Shown here: piece after piece, positions 5,504 through 20,820 of the stretch
Numbering within the stretch: the stretch's first letter is position 1
How the letters are laid out: every line of letters begins with the position of its first letter
Source: a virus
Direction: 5' to 3' (one strand)
Length of the DNA: 44,514 nucleotides
UHGV virus genome: UHGV-1355725
Translations under genes and position numbers: made by a program
Notes under the pieces: generated by a model
Told to the model about the DNA's origin: nothing
The model's database searches: none
Seen by the model: the letters and a program-made list of their open reading frames with translations, nothing else

Positions 5504-7774
5504 TTAGTACCCCGGCTGGTTTCGTGTAGCTCGGCGTGACTTGGAGATTGCGCTGTTGCTGTCCTGCAACGCCGCCGATACTGTTTCGCTGATGATAACA
5601 CGTAACCGCCCTTCGTCGTCACGTTCTGTTACGGCGGAATCAACACGTCCGGTGGTGTTGTTAACAATTGTCACGCTGTCACCGCCTGACTTGTTGCCGT
5701 TCTCCCCCATAATCTGGCGCATCTGTTCGGCGGTACGGACGCGTGACGCCCCCGCTGGCATAATAACTTCAGGCTTGTTACGTTCCGCGATGGTAGATAG
5801 CTGGCCAGCTGCCAAGTTACCGCCCTGCTCACGCGCTGAGCGAATCTTTCCTATGTTCGCGAGACCTGCTGCTACGGCTGCTGCCGCTGCCACAGGGCCG
5901 AGTACCCAACCAACAATAGGAATCGCGGACGCGGATTTATAAGCCTCGATGGCAGAGGTGTATGTGGCGATGGTGGCCTGGGCGATAGCAAACGCTTTGT
6001 ACGCGGAGGATGCTTCTCCAAGCGAAGATTTAATATTGTCCGCCATCATACCGAAGGCGTTACCTGTAGCATTGGCACGCTTCAAAGCATACTGGTCATT
6101 TATGGCGTTAACCGCAGCCTGGTACTGTTCCTCGTTAATAAGATTCTGTTCACGGTATCGGTCAGCAACGTCCAGTTTTTGTTGTTCCTGAATTTCCAGA
6201 AGCTCAAGCTCAGTAGCGTTCTGGCCCATAATCTGAGCCATGAAGTCGTCACCTTTCTGCTGTTTTTCTTGGGCTTCTTTCTGGCGTTTATCCAGTTCAT
6301 CTTGTCGTTTTTGCCCTGCTTCGAGGACAATAGCCGTTTTTGCTTGCTCATATTCTTTCAGTGACAGCGCGCCCTGGCTGTAGAACTCTTTTGCCTTAGC
6401 CAGTTTCTGCTGTTCCTGCGCGTCAATAGCCTTTAACTCGTCGTTGTTCTGGCGGGCCAAAGTGTCGAGGTAATCTTGCGCCTGATTCCGCAATTGTTCC
6501 GCTTTCTTGGCGGCGGCTTTTGCCGCTTTATCGTCAGCGTTTCCGGTGCCGCCAGTTCCACCCTTTTTATTAACAAGGCTGGCTAAGTCAATTTCTTGCT
6601 TCTTGCGCTCGTCGTACTGCTTGCGCTGTTCCTCAATTTCTTTCTTACGCTGCTTAGACCTGTCTGTAATGGCCCGCGATTCAGCCTCTGCACGTTTTAT
6701 ACTGGCGGCGTATGCGGCGTCGGCCTCTGCGGTCAGGTTTTTAAAGGTGAGCGCTGCCGTTTTGCTCGGGTCAAACACGTCGGCAAGGGTCTGGCCTAAC
6801 GCTACTGCGTAATCGTCAATGCGCTGGAACCACGCAATAACCTCGTGGAATGTCTGCTGGATGTCAGGCAACCACTCACGTATGGCATCAGGTATAGCCC
6901 CCAGCGAATCTGACATATCCGCGGATTTGTCCTCGGTGTCGTATGCTAGGTCGTTCAAGGCATCGGAAATAAACTTGAACGACTCGTTGAACAGCGTCGC
7001 CCAGTCCTGGAGTGTGGCGGCTATCTCATTAGATGCGATGGCGTCGGTAAGCGCCGTTACAGCGTCTTCCGCCATCGCTGCTTGCTCACCCACGGCGTCA
7101 CCAAAACCGGATTGAGCTACCGCAAGAACAAGACCATCGAAGGAGTCGGCGAGGCTCGACAACTGACCATCTAAGGTCTTAGAGCGCGTCTCCATCGCCC
7201 CGGCGAAATCAGTGTTACCGATGTTTAACAGGTATTTCTGAATCTCTTCGGAGTTCTTTTTAACGGTGGTGGTAACCCCTCGGAACGTAAACGAAACTGT
7301 ATCCGCCTGTTGCGAAGACTTGATGCCAAACTCTTTCAGTCGTTCAAACTCAAATGTACTGGCGTCGGCAACTGCCTCAATCATCTGATTAAGGTCTTTA
7401 CCCATAGCCGCCGCGGTGTTGCCGTAGGAGATTAACGCCTCTTTGCTGGGGTTCAGGCCGAGGGCTACAAGTTTAGTGAAGCCCTCGACCGCCTGATTGA
7501 GACCGTACGGAGTTTCTTTTGCGAACTGTTGCAGTACGCTGAAAGCCTTAGCCGCGTTCTCTGCGCTTCCGGTCATTGTGATGAGGCCGGAATTCAGCTT
7601 ATCGAAGTTGCGCTGAGAGTCCACCAGCGCGCTGAACACCTGCTTAGCGGTTTCCAGACTGACAACGGCAGCGGCAGCAGCCCCCGCCGCCTTAGTAAGC
7701 CCGTTCAGTTGGGATGTGGTTTTATCGACGCCGGTCGATGATACTCGTACTATCAAGCTAGCGGTATCAGCCAT
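5504..7774 (-). CDS. tail tape measure protein
   Basis: About 756 aa from ATG at 7774 (MADTASLIV...); Ala/Gln/Lys/Glu-rich coiled-coil stretch (EIEEQRKQYDERKKQ...); directly downstream of the G/GT chaperone pair. Confidence 0.8.
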   Translation of the reverse strand: MADTASLIVRVSSTGVDKTTSQLNGLTKAAGAAAAAVVSLETAKQVFSALVDSQRNFDKLNSGLITMTGSAENAAKAFSVLQQFAKETPYGLNQAVEGFTKLVALGLNPSKEALISYGNTAAAMGKDLNQMIEAVADASTFEFERLKEFGIKSSQQADTVSFTFRGVTTTVKKNSEEIQKYLLNIGNTDFAGAMETRSKTLDGQLSSLADSFDGLVLAVAQSGFGDAVGEQAAMAEDAVTALTDAIASNEIAATLQDWATLFNESFKFISDALNDLAYDTEDKSADMSDSLGAIPDAIREWLPDIQQTFHEVIAWFQRIDDYAVALGQTLADVFDPSKTAALTFKNLTAEADAAYAASIKRAEAESRAITDRSKQRKKEIEEQRKQYDERKKQEIDLASLVNKKGGTGGTGNADDKAAKAAAKKAEQLRNQAQDYLDTLARQNNDELKAIDAQEQQKLAKAKEFYSQGALSLKEYEQAKTAIVLEAGQKRQDELDKRQKEAQEKQQKGDDFMAQIMGQNATELELLEIQEQQKLDVADRYREQNLINEEQYQAAVNAINDQYALKRANATGNAFGMMADNIKSSLGEASSAYKAFAIAQATIATYTSAIEAYKSASAIPIVGWVLGPVAAAAAVAAGLANIGKIRSAREQGGNLAAGQLSTIAERNKPEVIMPAGASRVRTAEQMRQIMGENGNKSGGDSVTIVNNTTGRVDSAVTERDDEGRLRVIISETVSAALQDSNSAISKSRRATRNQPGY

Positions 7775-8548
7775 GATTTCTACCTTCAAAGATTGCTTCT
7801 AAGCCCATGATAACGTCTATCTCGAACAGGCTAAGCTGTTTTTGCGTAACATCGAGATAGGCTTTCAGGTCTTGCCACGTAACGGATTCTCTTGCAAACA
7901 ATACTACAGCGTCCTCGCGCACGTGTCGCGTAAACTTAATGTCACAGTACGTCTCAAAGGTGGATATAAAAAGGGGCGGGCATTCGGGCCCACCCCGTCG
8001 CGCTGCACGTTTTTTCTTATCGATTACACCCATCGCGATAAGCGCCTGTTCGTGTCCGTCGGCTATAGAATCAAACTCTCTGATTTTATGCTTATCCACA
8101 AACTCGTAGGTGGCGAACCTGTACAGCGCGTCTACTTTTCCTGTAATGCTTTGCGCTCGGCGTTATGGAACGCAGCTACCTGTGTACCCAATGCCTTGAA
8201 CTGATCCAGCAATTTGCTAAATGCTTCTTTAGAGAAAGGCTCATCAAAGCTCCAGCCGTTTACGACTTCTGCCGCGAGTTGTCGGTTGAGGTCTTCCGCC
8301 AGTTCGTTAATAGCCAGGTTATATTCAGTATAGTCGCCGGATTCTTTGGCGGCTTTTTCCAGTTCTTCGAAACGCGCCAACCCGCGACGGTACGCAATAA
8401 TGAAAGCACGCCCCGCTTTAACGGCGACATCCGCATCGGGACTTACAACGTTAAGCCATTCACCGGAGTCTTCGCCGTTTGGCAGCAGAATGGGCATCTT
8501 CTTGCCTACCAGTGCTTTCTCTTCGAAATAAAAATCAGAAAGTTTCAT
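7767..8548 (-). CDS. tail assembly chaperone GT fusion (predicted -1 frameshift product)
   Basis: The -1 frame relative to G opens at 8162 and runs to 7767, overlapping the tape measure start; G ends ...CAG GAA AAG TAG with the A-rich run GGAAAAG (8135-8141) as candidate slip site. Confidence 0.5.
8132..8548 (-). CDS. tail assembly chaperone (G-like)
   Basis: 138-aa acidic ORF, ATG 8548 with RBS AAAGGA; sits immediately upstream of the tape measure gene; the -1 frame is open across its last codons. Confidence 0.6.
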   Translation of the reverse strand: MKLSDFYFEEKALVGKKMPILLPNGEDSGEWLNVVSPDADVAVKAGRAFIIAYRRGLARFEELEKAAKESGDYTEYNLAINELAEDLNRQLAAEVVNGWSFDEPFSKEAFSKLLDQFKALGTQVAAFHNAERKALQEK

Positions 8549-8655
8549 TCTTTAATCCTTTGGTTAAGAGGTTACAGGTTAAGGTTAATGCGCCAGACGG
8601 GAACCACCCGCTTTTCGTGTGCGACACTAGGCGCAAACTTATTCTAGCACACTAC

Positions 8656-8687: not shown

Positions 8688-8714
8688 CTCACACCGACAA
8701 TGAAGGAGTTTAAA

Positions 8715-8906
8715 ATGTCCAGTTTACCAGTTTCCTTAATTCTGTTTGCGCTACTAGCCTATTTTGCGCCTTTCCTGGTTGCGTATTTCCGCGACCATAA
8801 AGCGAAGTTAGCGATATTCATGGCCAACCTGTTTCTGGGCTGGATTCTGTTGCCGTGGGTATTTATTTTAATCTGGGCTTGTAACTCGAATGTCAAAGAG
8901 AAGTGA
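8715..8906 (+). CDS. small membrane protein, superinfection-immunity-like
   Basis: 63 aa, two hydrophobic segments; motif YFAPFLVAYFRDHKAKLAIFMANLFLGW...ILIWA resembles the small superinfection-immunity membrane protein family; encoded opposite to the surrounding tail genes. Confidence 0.5.
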   Translation: MSSLPVSLILFALLAYFAPFLVAYFRDHKAKLAIFMANLFLGWILLPWVFILIWACNSNVKEK

Positions 8907-8944
8907 GCTAGTATAGGACAAATCCTAAACACGAGGAAGTAAGC

Positions 8945-10084
8945 ATGGCCCAGAAGAAAATAACCGACGAACAGTTACAGGAAGAATTGAACGCCGGGAT
9001 GAAGAATGTAGACATCGCCCGTAAATACGGCATCTCAGACCGCGTTATTCGTATCCGTAAAGCAAAACTAGCTAAGAAAGGCGTAGGTCATGGGCGTGAC
9101 GTTAGTCACCTTGTGCCAGATGGCTACAAGATTAAGGGCACGTCGTCACTTGTGGACGAGTTCGGCAACACTAAGTTGCAATGGGTTAAGACCGACACCG
9201 ACGCCGAACGTCAGGTTGAATTGATGAAAGCCGTAGTTGAAGGCATGAAGTCAGAGATTACGCCGGTTGCGCCTGTTAAAGCGACTCGCGCCAAACGCAA
9301 CGATAAACTACTCAATCTTTACACGGTATCTGATTTTCATCTCGGTATGCTGGCATGGGCCGACGAGAGCGGCGACGACTGGGATATGAAGATTGCGGAA
9401 GACCTGTTCTCCCGTTGGTTTGATGCTGCATTTCAGAAAGCGCCTGATGCGGGAACAGGAGTTATTAACCTGCTTGGAGACTTCGCGCACTTCGATAGTC
9501 TTGATGCCGTTACCCCTGAGTCGCGTCATGTGTTAGACGCCGATACTCGCTATCAGAAACTAGTTCGCTACATGATTCGTATGGTGCGTCGTGTTGTTGA
9601 TATGGCGCTTGTTAAACATCACACAGTCAAACTCTTAATAGTTCAAGGTAACCACGACCCTGTAGGCTCTGTATGGCTCGCCGAAATGTTCTGTACATTG
9701 TACGATAACGAACCTCGCGTATTTGTGGACACCTCCCCCGACGTATACAAGATGGTCCAGCACGGGAAAACTACGCTATTCATGCATCACGGACACCGTG
9801 CGAGATTCGACGCCATAGAGTCAGTAATGATTTCTAAATTCCGTAAGGCTTTTGGAGAAAGCACATACAGCTACGCTCATGTAGGGCATCTACATCATCA
9901 GAAATTAGTAGAAAGCCGCAATATGGTAGTCGAACAACACCGAACCCTGGCCGCGAAAGATGCTTACGCATCGCGAGGGGGCTGGATGTCCGGTCGTAGT
10001 GCTAACGTGATAACTTATAGCGCCGAATATGGGGAGGTGGCGCGCCTCACAATATCACCTGAAATGATAGGAGGTATAAATTGA
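8945..10084 (+). CDS. HTH domain fused to calcineurin-like metallophosphoesterase
   Basis: 379 aa; N-terminal HTH-like segment (VDIARKYGISDRVIRIRKAK); C-terminal metallophosphoesterase motifs DFHLG, GDFAHFD, GNHD, HHGH, GHLHH; RBS GAGGAAG before ATG 8945. Confidence 0.6.
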   Translation: MAQKKITDEQLQEELNAGMKNVDIARKYGISDRVIRIRKAKLAKKGVGHGRDVSHLVPDGYKIKGTSSLVDEFGNTKLQWVKTDTDAERQVELMKAVVEGMKSEITPVAPVKATRAKRNDKLLNLYTVSDFHLGMLAWADESGDDWDMKIAEDLFSRWFDAAFQKAPDAGTGVINLLGDFAHFDSLDAVTPESRHVLDADTRYQKLVRYMIRMVRRVVDMALVKHHTVKLLIVQGNHDPVGSVWLAEMFCTLYDNEPRVFVDTSPDVYKMVQHGKTTLFMHHGHRARFDAIESVMISKFRKAFGESTYSYAHVGHLHHQKLVESRNMVVEQHRTLAAKDAYASRGGWMSGRSANVITYSAEYGEVARLTISPEMIGGIN

Positions 10085-10554
10085 CATGGAATGACGTTTA
10101 CGAATACGAAAACGGGAATCTTTACGCTAAGAGCAGCGTAAACCCTAAGTACCCGAAAGGACGTAAAGTAGGGTACGTTGACCACCGCGGATATGTAAGA
10201 ACTAAACTAGGATCAAAAATGACATTCGCCCACAGAATTATATGGGAAATGTTTAACGGAGCTATACCAGAAGGCAAGGAGATTGACCATATAAACGGTG
10301 TGAAAAGCGATAACCGTATAGAGAATCTTCGACTGTGCGACCGGCACATAAACTGCAAAAATGCAGCAAAGCGCAGGGATAACTCGTCTGGTGTTACCGG
10401 GGTTAGTAAAACATACAACGGTAAATGGGTCGTTCAAATTCAATATAACGGGAATAGAATAGCCAAGCGTTTCGACCAAAAAGAAGACGCCGTAAGATAT
10501 GCAGAATGTTTTTACAAAGAAAAGAAAGACTTTACTGAGAGGCACGGAAAATGA
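10081..10554 (+). CDS. HNH homing endonuclease (HNH plus AP2-like DNA-binding domain)
   Basis: Motifs HRIIWEMFNG...IDHINGVKSDNRIENLRL (HNH) and GVTGVSKTYNGKWVVQIQYNG...F (AP2-like); TTG start overlapping the upstream stop (TTGA), RBS AGGAGG. Confidence 0.8.
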   Translation: MTWNDVYEYENGNLYAKSSVNPKYPKGRKVGYVDHRGYVRTKLGSKMTFAHRIIWEMFNGAIPEGKEIDHINGVKSDNRIENLRLCDRHINCKNAAKRRDNSSGVTGVSKTYNGKWVVQIQYNGNRIAKRFDQKEDAVRYAECFYKEKKDFTERHGK

Positions 10555-10781
10555 CTTCAAAATACAACCGCACAATGACAAATACTCACGGCAGCACTAT
10601 GACTGTAGACGTTTACGATGTGCTGCGCGCCTTCGACATCCGCGACCCGGCGTTGCAGCACGCATTAAAGAAACTTTTGTGTATGGGCTTGCGTGGGCAC
10701 AAAGACACCGGAACCGACTTAGCAGAAGCAATTGAAAGTCTGGAAAAGTTACGGGAGTATAGAAGCAATATCGACGAATAA
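10551..10781 (+). CDS. hypothetical protein
   Basis: 76-aa ORF, ATG overlaps the HNH stop (ATGA); same insertion operon. Confidence 0.45.
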   Translation: MTSKYNRTMTNTHGSTMTVDVYDVLRAFDIRDPALQHALKKLLCMGLRGHKDTGTDLAEAIESLEKLREYRSNIDE

Positions 10782-10920: not shown

Positions 10921-10948
10921 AAAAGGCCCCGAAAGGGGCCTTAGTTTT
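10921..10948. terminator. bidirectional rho-independent terminator
   Basis: Hairpin AGGCCCC-gaa-GGGGCCT (10924-10941) flanked by A-run on one side and T-run on the other; lies between convergent genes (plus insertion operon, minus major tail gene). Confidence 0.6.
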
Positions 10949-14631: not shown

Positions 14632-14976
14632 TTAAGACACAGTTGCTACAGTGCTGCTGGAGATAATATTACCATACACATCGTGAACAACCACTTTATA
14701 CGTGCCGGAATCGGTAGATGCGACAGTGGTGGCTTTGGTGTACGTAGCCGCTGTAGCGCCTGGGATGGCGTTGTTGTTCTTGTACCACTGATAAGAATAT
14801 GGCTCCAGACCGCCAGTTACTGCGACGGTAAGAGTCAATGCGGTGGGTGCACTAACAGTGGTGGTAGCATCAAGTGCGGTAGAGAAGGACGCAGGAGAAA
14901 TAGTCGCCATGTCAATCTTAGCACCTACGGTGTCTGCAGAGACGCCAGTGATGCGTCGTTTCAATACGTCTGCCAT
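14632..14976 (-). CDS. Ig-like domain protein (candidate head decoration)
   Basis: 114 aa; Ig-like signature YSYQWYKNNNAIPGATAATYTK...DSGTYKVVVHDVYGN; immediately downstream of the major capsid gene, RBS GAGGA. Confidence 0.5.
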   Translation of the reverse strand: MADVLKRRITGVSADTVGAKIDMATISPASFSTALDATTTVSAPTALTLTVAVTGGLEPYSYQWYKNNNAIPGATAATYTKATTVASTDSGTYKVVVHDVYGNIISSSTVATVS

Positions 14977-17980: not shown

Positions 17981-18008
17981 CTAAGGCCCCATTATGGGGC
18001 CTTTTATC
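17981..18008. terminator. bidirectional rho-independent terminator
   Basis: Hairpin AGGCCCC-attat-GGGGCCT (17984-18002) followed by TTTT; lies between convergent stops. Confidence 0.6.
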
Positions 18009-20794: not shown

Positions 20795-20820
20795 TAAGGC
20801 CCCATAACGGGGCCTTTTTC
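20795..20820. terminator. bidirectional rho-independent terminator
   Basis: Hairpin AAGGCCCC-ataac-GGGGCCTT followed by TTTTTC; between convergent stops (20791 plus, 20822 minus). Confidence 0.6.

What the first reader, a model, noticed from the sequence alone, without database searches (positions are those of the whole stretch)
7767..8548. Programmed -1 frameshift in the tail assembly chaperone pair
The chaperone-like ORF upstream of the tape measure gene ends ...CAG GAA AAG TAG, and the -1 frame is open from 8162 through to 7767 (overlapping the tape measure start). The A-rich run GGAAAAG is a plausible though non-canonical slip site. This matches the conserved G/GT frameshift of long-tailed phages and supports the tail-module assignment.
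Basis: partly seen in the sequence, partly recalled or inferred. Interest (0 to 1): 0.4.

Follow-up and report, generated by a model that had tools for sequence, protein, structure and literature searches.

The report
Phage tail chaperone G/GT frameshift
This is the well-known trick by which long-tailed phages make a short and a long tail-assembly chaperone from one gene through an occasional one-base backward slip of the ribosome; it is real here, but the same junction is already annotated in near-identical phages.

Summary
On the minus strand, a 138-codon chaperone gene (8548..8132) ends CAG GAA AAG TAG. Its -1 frame is open from 8162 to the TGA at 7769-7767, overlapping the tape-measure ATG (7774) by 8 nt. 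The window is a K1G-like Kagunavirus (97% nt identity).

The fused product with the same junction (...LQEK|VDALY...) is already deposited for phage K1G and for Salmonella phage Shelanagig, so this is already known.

Comparative data support the shift and locate it:
- In 49 distinct relatives (38-99% identity), the -1 ORF of 121-122 codons is always present and has no conserved start codon.
- The chaperone gene ends NNA_AAG directly before TAA/TAG in 48 of 49.
- AAAGTA is the only invariant run in a 213-nt comparison.
- In some relatives the -1 frame opens only two codons before the stop.

The conserved signal is therefore the A_AAG tetramer next to the stop, not a full heptamer. No conserved RNA structure lies beside it.

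One by-product may be new. A strong terminator-like hairpin (7996-7973, then T5) sits inside the frameshift-only segment. About nine lineages keep it with different stems, and it is more stable than synonymous recodings of the same peptide. No frameshift product has been shown experimentally for this phage group in anything I found.

The parts
8132..8548 (-). Gene G: tail assembly chaperone, 138 aa. The ATG at 8548 is preceded by AAGGA; the TAG stop is at 8134-8132.
   Evidence: Pfam PF08748 Phage_TAC_4 (E 2e-5, above cut-off) and PHROG 15027 positions 1-138 (E 6e-71). The exact protein is in public collections.
8135..8141 (-). Shift site G_GAA_AAG (zero-frame codons GAA AAG). The conserved core A_AAG is 8138-8135. 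After the slip the ribosome reads GGA AAA, then GTA.
   Evidence: It is the only in-frame A_AAG in G. NNA_AAG is present in all 49 distinct relatives, with GAA, GCA, GGA, TCA or AAA as the 5' codon. AAAGTA is the only invariant run of 4 or more nt in a 213-nt anchored comparison of 12 lineages.
8132..8134 (-). Zero-frame stop TAG directly 3' of the shift codon. It is TAA or TAG in relatives.
   Evidence: It is adjacent in 48 of 49 distinct relatives and one codon later in L086. In lambda the G stop lies five sense codons after G_GGA_AAG.
7767..8135 (-). T segment: 122 codons in the -1 frame plus the TGA at 7769-7767. GT = join(8548..8135, 8135..7767), 260 aa, junction ...ALQEK|VDALYRF...
   Evidence: Pfam PF23812 Phage_TAC_18 (E 4e-18) and PHROG 15027 positions 139-259. 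The protein is conserved from its first codon and has no conserved start codon or Shine-Dalgarno sequence. The identical junction is deposited for K1G and Shelanagig.
8123..8129 (-). GCGCTGT, 3' flanking context with suppressed synonymous variation (T codons 3-4, Ala GCG and Leu CTG).
   Evidence: Across 23 lineages below 90% identity, GCG is used in 22 of 23 and CTG in 21 of 23 (entropy 0.26-0.43 bit). Other conserved Ala, Leu and Gly columns of T show 1.3-2.1 bit. The role is unknown.
7966..7996 (-). Intrinsic-terminator-like hairpin inside the T segment: GGGGTGGGC (7996-7988), loop CCGAAT, GCCCGCCCC (7981-7973), then TTTTTAT (7972-7966). It starts 139 nt 3' of the shift site and ends 192 nt 5' of the tape-measure ATG.
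   Evidence: It is the top-ranked terminator-like site in the scanned 1-40000 of the window and the only strong one inside a real same-strand ORF. About 9 of 23 lineages keep it with different stems. It is more stable than synonymous recodings of the same peptide, p 0.001-0.013 in those lineages. The covariation test is inconclusive.
5504..7774 (-). Tape measure protein gene. Its ATG at 7774 overlaps the end of T by 8 nt.
   Evidence: PHROG 1538 (E 5e-186). Pfam TMP_3 matches below its curated cut-off. Annotated as tape measure in K1G.
8573..8637 (-). Structured leader upstream of G that resembles the Rfam int-alpA RNA (context only, not part of the frameshift signal).
   Evidence: RF02996 scores 31.3 bits against a gathering score of 35.8 (E 3e-4), over the full model length. 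It is found at the same place in relatives at 28-33.8 bits.

Best explanation
This is a programmed -1 ribosomal frameshift of the lambda G/GT type. Most ribosomes translate the 138-codon chaperone gene and stop at the TAG (8134-8132). A small fraction slips back one base on A_AAG (8138-8135). The lysine tRNA decoding AAG re-pairs with AAA, the next codon read is GTA, and translation runs on for 122 codons to the TGA at 7769-7767. The result is a 260-aa fusion, GT (...ALQEK-VDALY...).

By analogy with lambda, G and the G part of GT bind the tape-measure protein, the T part recruits the tail tube protein, and the low, fixed GT:G ratio is what the shift provides.

Shown here: the frame geometry, the family assignment, the absence of an independent start for T, and the nucleotide-level conservation of A_AAG plus the stop.

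Inferred: that the slip happens at all, since no protein data exist. Also inferred are a few-percent efficiency and single-tRNA slippage of tRNA-Lys as the essential step. In this phage the glutamate tRNA can also re-pair GAA to GGA with one G-U pair. The adjacent stop codon may help by leaving the A site slow to fill.
For: Geometry.

Family: Phage_TAC_4 and Phage_TAC_18 match, and the fused PHROG 15027 profile is split exactly at 138/139.

Conservation: all 31 unique loci and all 49 distinct T proteins keep a -1 ORF of 121-122 codons. NNA_AAG is universal, followed directly by TAR in 48 of 49. The residue before Lys varies (E, G, A, S, K) but its third base is always A. Lys is always AAG, whereas another conserved Lys column in T uses AAA 14 times and AAG 8 times.

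Location: in L022, L023 and L101 the -1 frame opens only two codons before the stop. AAAGTA is the sole invariant run.

No independent start: L032-L034 have no ATG, GTG or TTG in the first 45 T codons, and no candidate start has a Shine-Dalgarno sequence.

Variants with canonical heptamers: RP180 has G_GGA_AAG (L013) and L121 has A_AAA_AAG.

Public annotation: the same junction is deposited for K1G and Shelanagig.

Literature: A_AAG is the minimal -1 shift site in E. coli, and NNA_AAG efficiency depends on the 5' codon. It is used at G_CGA_AAG by IS1222. The lambda G:GT ratio is about 30:1 (PMC5009743).
Against: I found no experimental detection of a GT product for any Guernseyvirinae phage. 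The heptamer G_GAA_AAG is not canonical. One published announcement for a related phage (Shashou), which carries the same CAG GAA AAG TAG, states there is no canonical slippery sequence and annotates T as a separate gene. No stimulatory structure was found: folding z-score 0.15, and the consensus fold has only 3 trivial pairs. No conserved Shine-Dalgarno-like stimulator lies upstream. Efficiency may therefore be low.
Confidence: 0.9

Rival explanations
1. T is an ordinary separate gene with its own start, as many GenBank records annotate it (for example a start 5 nt after the G stop, or GTG at 8099). No frameshift takes place.
For: Gene callers list a 110-aa ORF from GTG 8099. Bas74, Shashou, ST20 and others annotate a separate CDS. 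The Shashou paper argues there is no canonical slippery sequence.
Against: No start codon is conserved. GTG at codon 12 is missing in many close relatives and has no Shine-Dalgarno sequence. ATG at codon 34 has none either and is absent or displaced in L029-L034. L032-L034 have no ATG, GTG or TTG in the first 45 codons. The Bas74 start falls on CTG. The protein is conserved from the first -1 codon. The frame relation (-1) and the A_AAG-stop junction are invariant, which an independent gene would not require.
Confidence: 0.05
2. The frame change is made on the RNA by transcriptional slippage: RNA polymerase adds or drops an A in the A run. The ribosome does not slip.
For: The site contains a run of four A residues (8139-8136).
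Against: Efficient transcriptional slippage needs longer homopolymer runs, about 7-9 nt or more; this rests on established knowledge and on the general treatment in PMC5009743. Many relatives have only three A residues (GCA AAG, TCA AAG) yet keep the arrangement. The invariant G after the run, and the choice of AAG over AAA, fit tRNA-Lys slippage rather than polymerase slippage.
Confidence: 0.02
3. The shift is a lambda-like tandem slip of two tRNAs on the heptamer G_GAA_AAG (P-site Glu tRNA and A-site Lys tRNA). It is not a single-tRNA slip at A_AAG helped by the adjacent stop. This rivals the mechanistic detail only.
For: In this window GAA to GGA re-pairing keeps two Watson-Crick pairs plus one G-U pair. 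RP180 has the canonical G_GGA_AAG and L121 has A_AAA_AAG. G_GGA_AAG is highly shift-prone in E. coli (PMC5009743).
Against: Lineages with C_GCA_AAG, G_GCA_AAG or G_TCA_AAG offer little P-site re-pairing yet keep the arrangement. What is invariant is A_AAG plus the stop.
Confidence: 0.35

Closest known systems
Phage lambda gpG/gpGT tail assembly chaperones (Levin, Hendrix and Casjens 1993; Xu, Hendrix and Duda 2004, 2013, 2014; as summarised in PMC5009743)
   Same: Two ORFs lie directly upstream of the tape-measure gene. The second is in the -1 frame and has no start of its own. The shift codon is AAG read by tRNA-Lys, and re-reading begins at the G of AAG (lambda T is annotated from 10115, the G of G_GGA_AAG). 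The end of T overlaps the tape-measure start.
   Different: Lambda uses the canonical G_GGA_AAG, followed by five more sense codons before the G stop. Here the heptamer is G_GAA_AAG and the stop follows at once. The proteins belong to other TAC Pfam families (TAC_4 and TAC_18). The tail tube gene is separated from G by an opposite-strand gene cassette.
Escherichia phage K1G ORF22A/ORF22B (GU196277 / NC_027993; ADA82267.1, YP_009168804.1) and Salmonella phage Shelanagig gp25/gp26
   Same: K1G has 97% nucleotide identity over the region, the same CAG GAA AAG TAG, and a joined CDS. Its deposited 260-aa protein has the junction ...LQEK|VDALY.... Shelanagig has the same junction, annotated as 'tail assembly chaperone frameshift product'.
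   Different: The window's fusion differs from K1G's by two residues, S111N and V245I. The exact window fusion is not in the collection.
Single-tRNA -1 frameshifting at NNA_AAG in bacteria (IS1222 G_CGA_AAG, Bacillus subtilis cdd A_CGA_AAG, synthetic A_AAG constructs; PMC5009743)
   Same: The minimal Z_ZZN site A_AAG is decoded by the single E. coli tRNA-Lys. The 5' codon is variable but ends in A. Efficiency is low level.
   Different: Those cases are not phage tail genes. A role for the directly adjacent stop codon is suggested here only by conservation.
E. coli dnaX A_AAA_AAG frameshift
   Same: The same shift-prone AAG/tRNA-Lys codon is used, and one relative (L121) carries exactly A_AAA_AAG.
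   Different: dnaX has an upstream Shine-Dalgarno-like stimulator and a downstream hairpin and shifts at about 50% (from established knowledge). Neither stimulator is found here.

Membership tests
G/GT-type frameshifted tail assembly chaperone pair of long-tailed phages | Two ORFs between the tail tube gene and the tape-measure gene, immediately upstream of the latter. | tested here: met
   G is 8548..8132, T is 8135..7767, and the tape-measure ATG is at 7774. The tail tube gene lies further upstream, separated by an opposite-strand cassette as in K1G.
G/GT-type frameshifted tail assembly chaperone pair of long-tailed phages | The second ORF overlaps the end of the first in the -1 frame, and this relation is conserved in relatives. 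| tested here: met
   The -1 frame is open 9 codons before and 122 codons after the stop. This holds in all 49 distinct relatives.
G/GT-type frameshifted tail assembly chaperone pair of long-tailed phages | The second ORF lacks its own start codon and ribosome binding site. | tested here: met
   No start codon or Shine-Dalgarno sequence is conserved, and three lineages have none in 45 codons.
G/GT-type frameshifted tail assembly chaperone pair of long-tailed phages | A slippery sequence lies in the overlap. | tested here: met
   A_AAG is invariant. The full heptamer G_GAA_AAG is near-canonical only, while canonical G_GGA_AAG and A_AAA_AAG occur in RP180 and L121.
G/GT-type frameshifted tail assembly chaperone pair of long-tailed phages | Sequence membership in tail assembly chaperone families. 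| tested here: met
   PF08748 scores 25.0 against a cut-off of 21.1, PF23812 scores 65.7 against 27, and PHROG 15027 matches at E 1e-69 to 1e-71.
G/GT-type frameshifted tail assembly chaperone pair of long-tailed phages | A fusion protein is actually made, at a low fixed ratio, and is needed for tail assembly. | not testable with these tools
   I found no proteomic or genetic data for this phage group. The lambda data are in PMC5009743.
Heptameric X_XXY_YYZ tandem-slippage site with 3' stimulatory RNA structure | Canonical heptamer. | tested here: not met
   G has no X_XXY_YYZ in frame, and G_GAA_AAG breaks the XXX rule.
Heptameric X_XXY_YYZ tandem-slippage site with 3' stimulatory RNA structure | A hairpin or pseudoknot 5-9 nt downstream, conserved. 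| tested here: not met
   The folding z-score is 0.15 and the consensus fold of 14 lineages gives only 3 pairs. The only strong hairpin starts 139 nt away.
Rho-independent (intrinsic) transcription terminator, for the hairpin at 7996-7966 | A G+C-rich stem-loop directly followed by a T run on the transcribed strand. | tested here: met
   The stem has 9 pairs (8 G-C), a loop of 6, then TTTTTAT. It is the best-scoring site in the window, and the opposite strand has no T run after the stem.
Rho-independent (intrinsic) transcription terminator, for the hairpin at 7996-7966 | Conservation of the structure beyond what the coding sequence requires. | tested here: inconclusive
   It beats synonymous recodings in about 9 lineages, p 0.001-0.013, and covariation exceeds all 500 shuffles. 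However, the +3 slide control gives an equal covariation score, the four inner pairs never vary, and it is absent in about 14 of 23 lineages.
Rho-independent (intrinsic) transcription terminator, for the hairpin at 7996-7966 | RNA 3' ends form at the T run in vivo. | not testable with these tools
   This needs Term-seq, 3' RACE or a Northern blot.

The most novel reading that the evidence does not exclude
The frameshift-only T segment may do double duty. Because most ribosomes leave the mRNA at the G stop, the 360 nt before the tape-measure gene are ribosome-poor. Several Guernseyvirinae lineages, including this phage, have built a real intrinsic terminator (7996-7966) into that coding sequence. 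It would cut transcription into the tape-measure and distal tail genes and so set G far above the tape-measure protein in amount. In the boldest form, a leading ribosome that has frameshifted would mask the hairpin, coupling read-through to GT synthesis. Separately, the minimal recoding signal of this group would be A_AAG plus the adjacent stop plus a conserved 3' context GCGCUGU, with no RNA structure.
Probability: 0.3. Interest if true: 0.5.

Novelty: already known. Interest (0 to 1): 0.15.

Why it matters
The frameshift itself matters mainly for correct annotation. Many GenBank records of this phage group, which includes phage-therapy candidates against K1 E. coli and Salmonella, still list the T part as a separate hypothetical gene. 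One paper states that there is no slippery sequence. The comparison here shows that the group uses the minimal A_AAG site abutting the stop codon, which gives annotators a simple rule.

The embedded terminator-like hairpin, if it works, would be a neat example of transcriptional tuning hidden inside a recoded, rarely translated reading frame. It can be tested with standard RNA 3'-end mapping.

Tried and rejected
- Stimulatory RNA structure next to the slip site: folding of 8141-8030 gave z = 0.15. The consensus fold of 14 lineages gave 3 trivial pairs and no covariation. Rejected.
- Upstream Shine-Dalgarno-like stimulator: AGGA in CAGGAAAAG is directly adjacent and is not conserved in the GCA or TCA lineages. 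Rejected.
- Independent start for T: rejected.
- The +1 frame closes after 13 codons.
- Exact look-up of the window's own fused protein: not in the collection. The K1G and Shelanagig fusions were found instead.
- Solved structures: only one insignificant hit, 7uek, E 0.005.
- Anany et al. 2015 (PMID 25663216), cited in the Shashou record for the predicted frameshift in the type phages, is not held in the library.
- Literature search for terminators inside chaperone genes found nothing relevant.
- Distant relatives at 27-30% identity (Serratia Opt-155, Pseudomonas PaMx74, Vibrio ALK, Xanthomonas Elanor) also have a -1 ORF after G, but with other shift sites, for example T_TTT_TTC in ALK. They were not used for the motif analysis.
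- Hairpin at 7996-7973 as a frameshift stimulator: rejected, because it starts 139 nt from the site.
Full report
**What is there**

All genes of the finding are on the minus strand. An ATG-started ORF of 138 codons runs from 8548 to the TAG at 8134-8132 and ends GCA TTA CAG GAA AAG TAG. In the -1 frame the last upstream stop is TAA at 8165-8163. From 8162 that frame is open to the TGA at 7769-7767. The +1 frame closes after 13 codons. The next gene has its ATG at 7774, preceded by GAAGG, and overlaps the end of the -1 ORF by 8 nt (ATGGCTGA).

**Identity**

The region is 94-97% identical to K1G-like coliphages of the genus Kagunavirus, subfamily Guernseyvirinae. The first ORF matches Pfam Phage_TAC_4 and the -1 ORF matches Phage_TAC_18. 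PHROG 15027 is a 259-position profile of a fused chaperone, and the two parts match it at 1-138 and 139-259, so the split falls exactly at the proposed junction. The downstream gene is a tape measure protein (PHROG 1538, E 5e-186).

**Already annotated**

RefSeq K1G carries a joined CDS (ORF22B) next to the short one (ORF22A). Salmonella phage Shelanagig has a 'tail assembly chaperone frameshift product'. I built the fusions with the junction after AAG, re-reading its G. The exact 260-aa sequences are in public databases for K1G and fKuEco01 (ADA82267.1, YP_009168804.1, QNO11738.1) and for Shelanagig (QEG07365.1). The window's fusion differs from K1G's by two residues and is not itself deposited.

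Other records still annotate T as a separate gene, including Bas74, which starts it on a CTG. The Shashou announcement says there is 'no canonical slippery sequence'. Yet Shashou has the same CAG GAA AAG TAG.

**Comparative test**

Two scans of IMG/VR gave 32 and 80 loci. Every locus that covers the junction has a -1 ORF of 121-122 codons after the G stop. This holds for all 49 distinct T proteins, which are 38-99% identical to the query.

- The last two sense codons are always NNA AAG: GAA, GCA, TCA or AAA, plus GGA in RP180.
- They are followed directly by TAG or TAA in 48 of 49. L086 has one extra codon before the stop.
- The residue before Lys changes (E, G, A, S, K) but its third base is always A.
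- Lys is always AAG, whereas another conserved Lys column in T uses AAA 14 times and AAG 8 times.
- In a 213-nt ungapped comparison of 12 lineages sharing 49-62% nucleotide identity, the only invariant run of 4 or more nt is AAAGTA, and the conservation peak sits on it.
- In L022, L023 and L101 the -1 frame opens only two codons before the stop. The shift must therefore happen within C_GCA_AAG.
- Within the window's G gene, the last codon is the only in-frame A_AAG and there is no X_XXY_YYZ. In-frame A_AAG occurs at 0.24% of codons in the neighbouring tail genes.

**T has no start of its own**

The T protein is conserved from its first codon (V-[DKNA]-A-L-[YCF]). GTG at codon 12 and ATG at codon 34 have no Shine-Dalgarno sequence and are missing in several lineages. 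L032-L034 have no ATG, GTG or TTG in the first 45 codons.

**Mechanism**

The review PMC5009743 states several relevant points:
- The tetramer Z_ZZN, and A_AAG in particular, is the minimal -1 site in E. coli.
- NNA_AAG efficiency depends on the 5' codon.
- G_CGA_AAG is used by IS1222.
- G_GGA_AAG, the lambda site, is highly shift-prone.
- The lambda G:GT ratio is about 30:1, and neither protein is in the virion.

The conservation pattern here fits slippage of tRNA-Lys from AAG to AAA as the essential event. In this phage the Glu tRNA can also re-pair GAA to GGA with one G-U pair. In the GCA and TCA lineages it cannot, which argues that tandem re-pairing is dispensable.

The stop codon abuts the site in this group, whereas in lambda five sense codons intervene. 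This suggests, but does not show, that a slow A site helps. No stimulator was found: folding z-score 0.15, no conserved consensus structure, and no conserved upstream Shine-Dalgarno-like sequence. I therefore infer a low efficiency of a few percent.

An unexplained extra is that synonymous variation is almost absent at T codons 1, 3 and 4 (GTA, GCG, CTG; entropy 0.26-0.43 bit). Other conserved Ala, Leu and Gly columns show 1.3-2.1 bit. A 3' context A_AAG_UAR_NNG_CGC_UGU therefore seems to be under nucleotide-level constraint.

The only strong hairpin downstream starts 139 nt from the site: GGGGTGGGC-CCGAAT-GCCCGCCCC (7996-7973), followed by TTTTTAT. It is the best terminator-like hit in the scanned 1-40000 of the window. 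The other strong hits lie between genes. This is the only one inside a real same-strand ORF, and that ORF is translated only by frameshifted ribosomes.

- It encodes GGPECPPLFI. The core GGGC/GCCC follows from the conserved Gly-Pro...Cys-Pro motif.
- The stem is extended differently in different lineages, with matching amino-acid changes on both arms: GG/PP, EK/F, EE/S, DR/P, TT/V and LK/L. A T run follows.
- In about nine lineages the local fold is more stable than 1000 synonymous recodings of the same peptide (p 0.001-0.013). In lineages without the extended stem, p is 0.1-0.95.
- A pair count over 35 sequences exceeds all 500 shuffles for pairing and covariation, but the +3 slide control scores as high and the four inner pairs never vary. 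That test is inconclusive.

I regard a partial terminator, or an RNA 3'-end stabiliser, that lowers tape-measure expression relative to G as plausible (about 0.3). It is absent from many relatives, so it is not essential.

**Context**

The G leader (8637-8573) matches the Rfam int-alpA RNA just below threshold, in this window and in several relatives. By eye, an extended -10 promoter-like sequence (TGcTAGAAT, 8649-8641) would place the transcription start at the 5' end of that structure. This is inference only.

**Verdict**

The feature is a known one, already annotated with the same junction in 97%-identical phages. It remains without experimental proof in this phage group.

Noticed in passing
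window 7966-7996, minus strand: A strong intrinsic-terminator-like hairpin (9 pairs, 8 G-C, then TTTTTAT) lies inside the frameshift-only T segment. It is the top-ranked site in the window and the only strong one inside a same-strand ORF. About 9 of 23 related lineages keep it with different stems, and it is more stable than synonymous recodings of the same peptide.
   Followed up: yes
window 8573-8637, minus strand (also L013 1411-1475, L020 1414-1477, L003, L016, L019, L032): The 5' leader of the chaperone gene matches the Rfam int-alpA RNA (RF02996) over the full model, just below the gathering score (28-33.8 bits against 35.8). That motif is otherwise described upstream of prophage int/alpA genes. 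An extended -10-like TGcTAGAAT at 8649-8641 would start the transcript at its 5' end.
   Followed up: partly
window 8123-8131, minus strand: Synonymous variation is nearly absent in the first T codons (GTA, GCG, CTG) across 23 lineages, unlike other conserved Ala and Leu columns. This looks like a 3' sequence context of the shift site with unknown role.
   Followed up: partly
window 8700-10781, plus strand: An opposite-strand cassette splits the tail module between the tail tube gene and the chaperone gene. In K1G it holds superinfection immunity, DNA repair exonuclease, polynucleotide kinase and ATP-binding protein genes. A bidirectional terminator-like AAGGCCCC...GGGGCCTT closes it at 10923-10942. 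The same hairpin type recurs at 17983-18003 and 20796-20816.
   Followed up: no
L040 (Shashou MK931440) 14794-14812: Phage Shashou, published as lacking a slippery sequence, has the identical CAG GAA AAG TAG junction and a -1 T ORF. Its T is annotated as a separate hypothetical protein, which is probably a mis-annotation.
   Followed up: yes
L086 690-710; L121 690-710; L013 1908-1917: Three informative variants of the site were seen: L086 has one extra sense codon (GCA AAG TTA TAG), L121 has the dnaX-type A_AAA_AAG, and RP180 has the lambda-type G_GGA_AAG.
   Followed up: partly
L035-L038 (Serratia Opt-155, Pseudomonas PaMx74, Vibrio ALK, Xanthomonas Elanor): Distant G homologues (27-30% identity) are also followed by a -1 ORF annotated as a separate hypothetical gene. 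ALK has a canonical T_TTT_TTC four codons before the stop. These frameshifts are not annotated in the records.
   Followed up: partly
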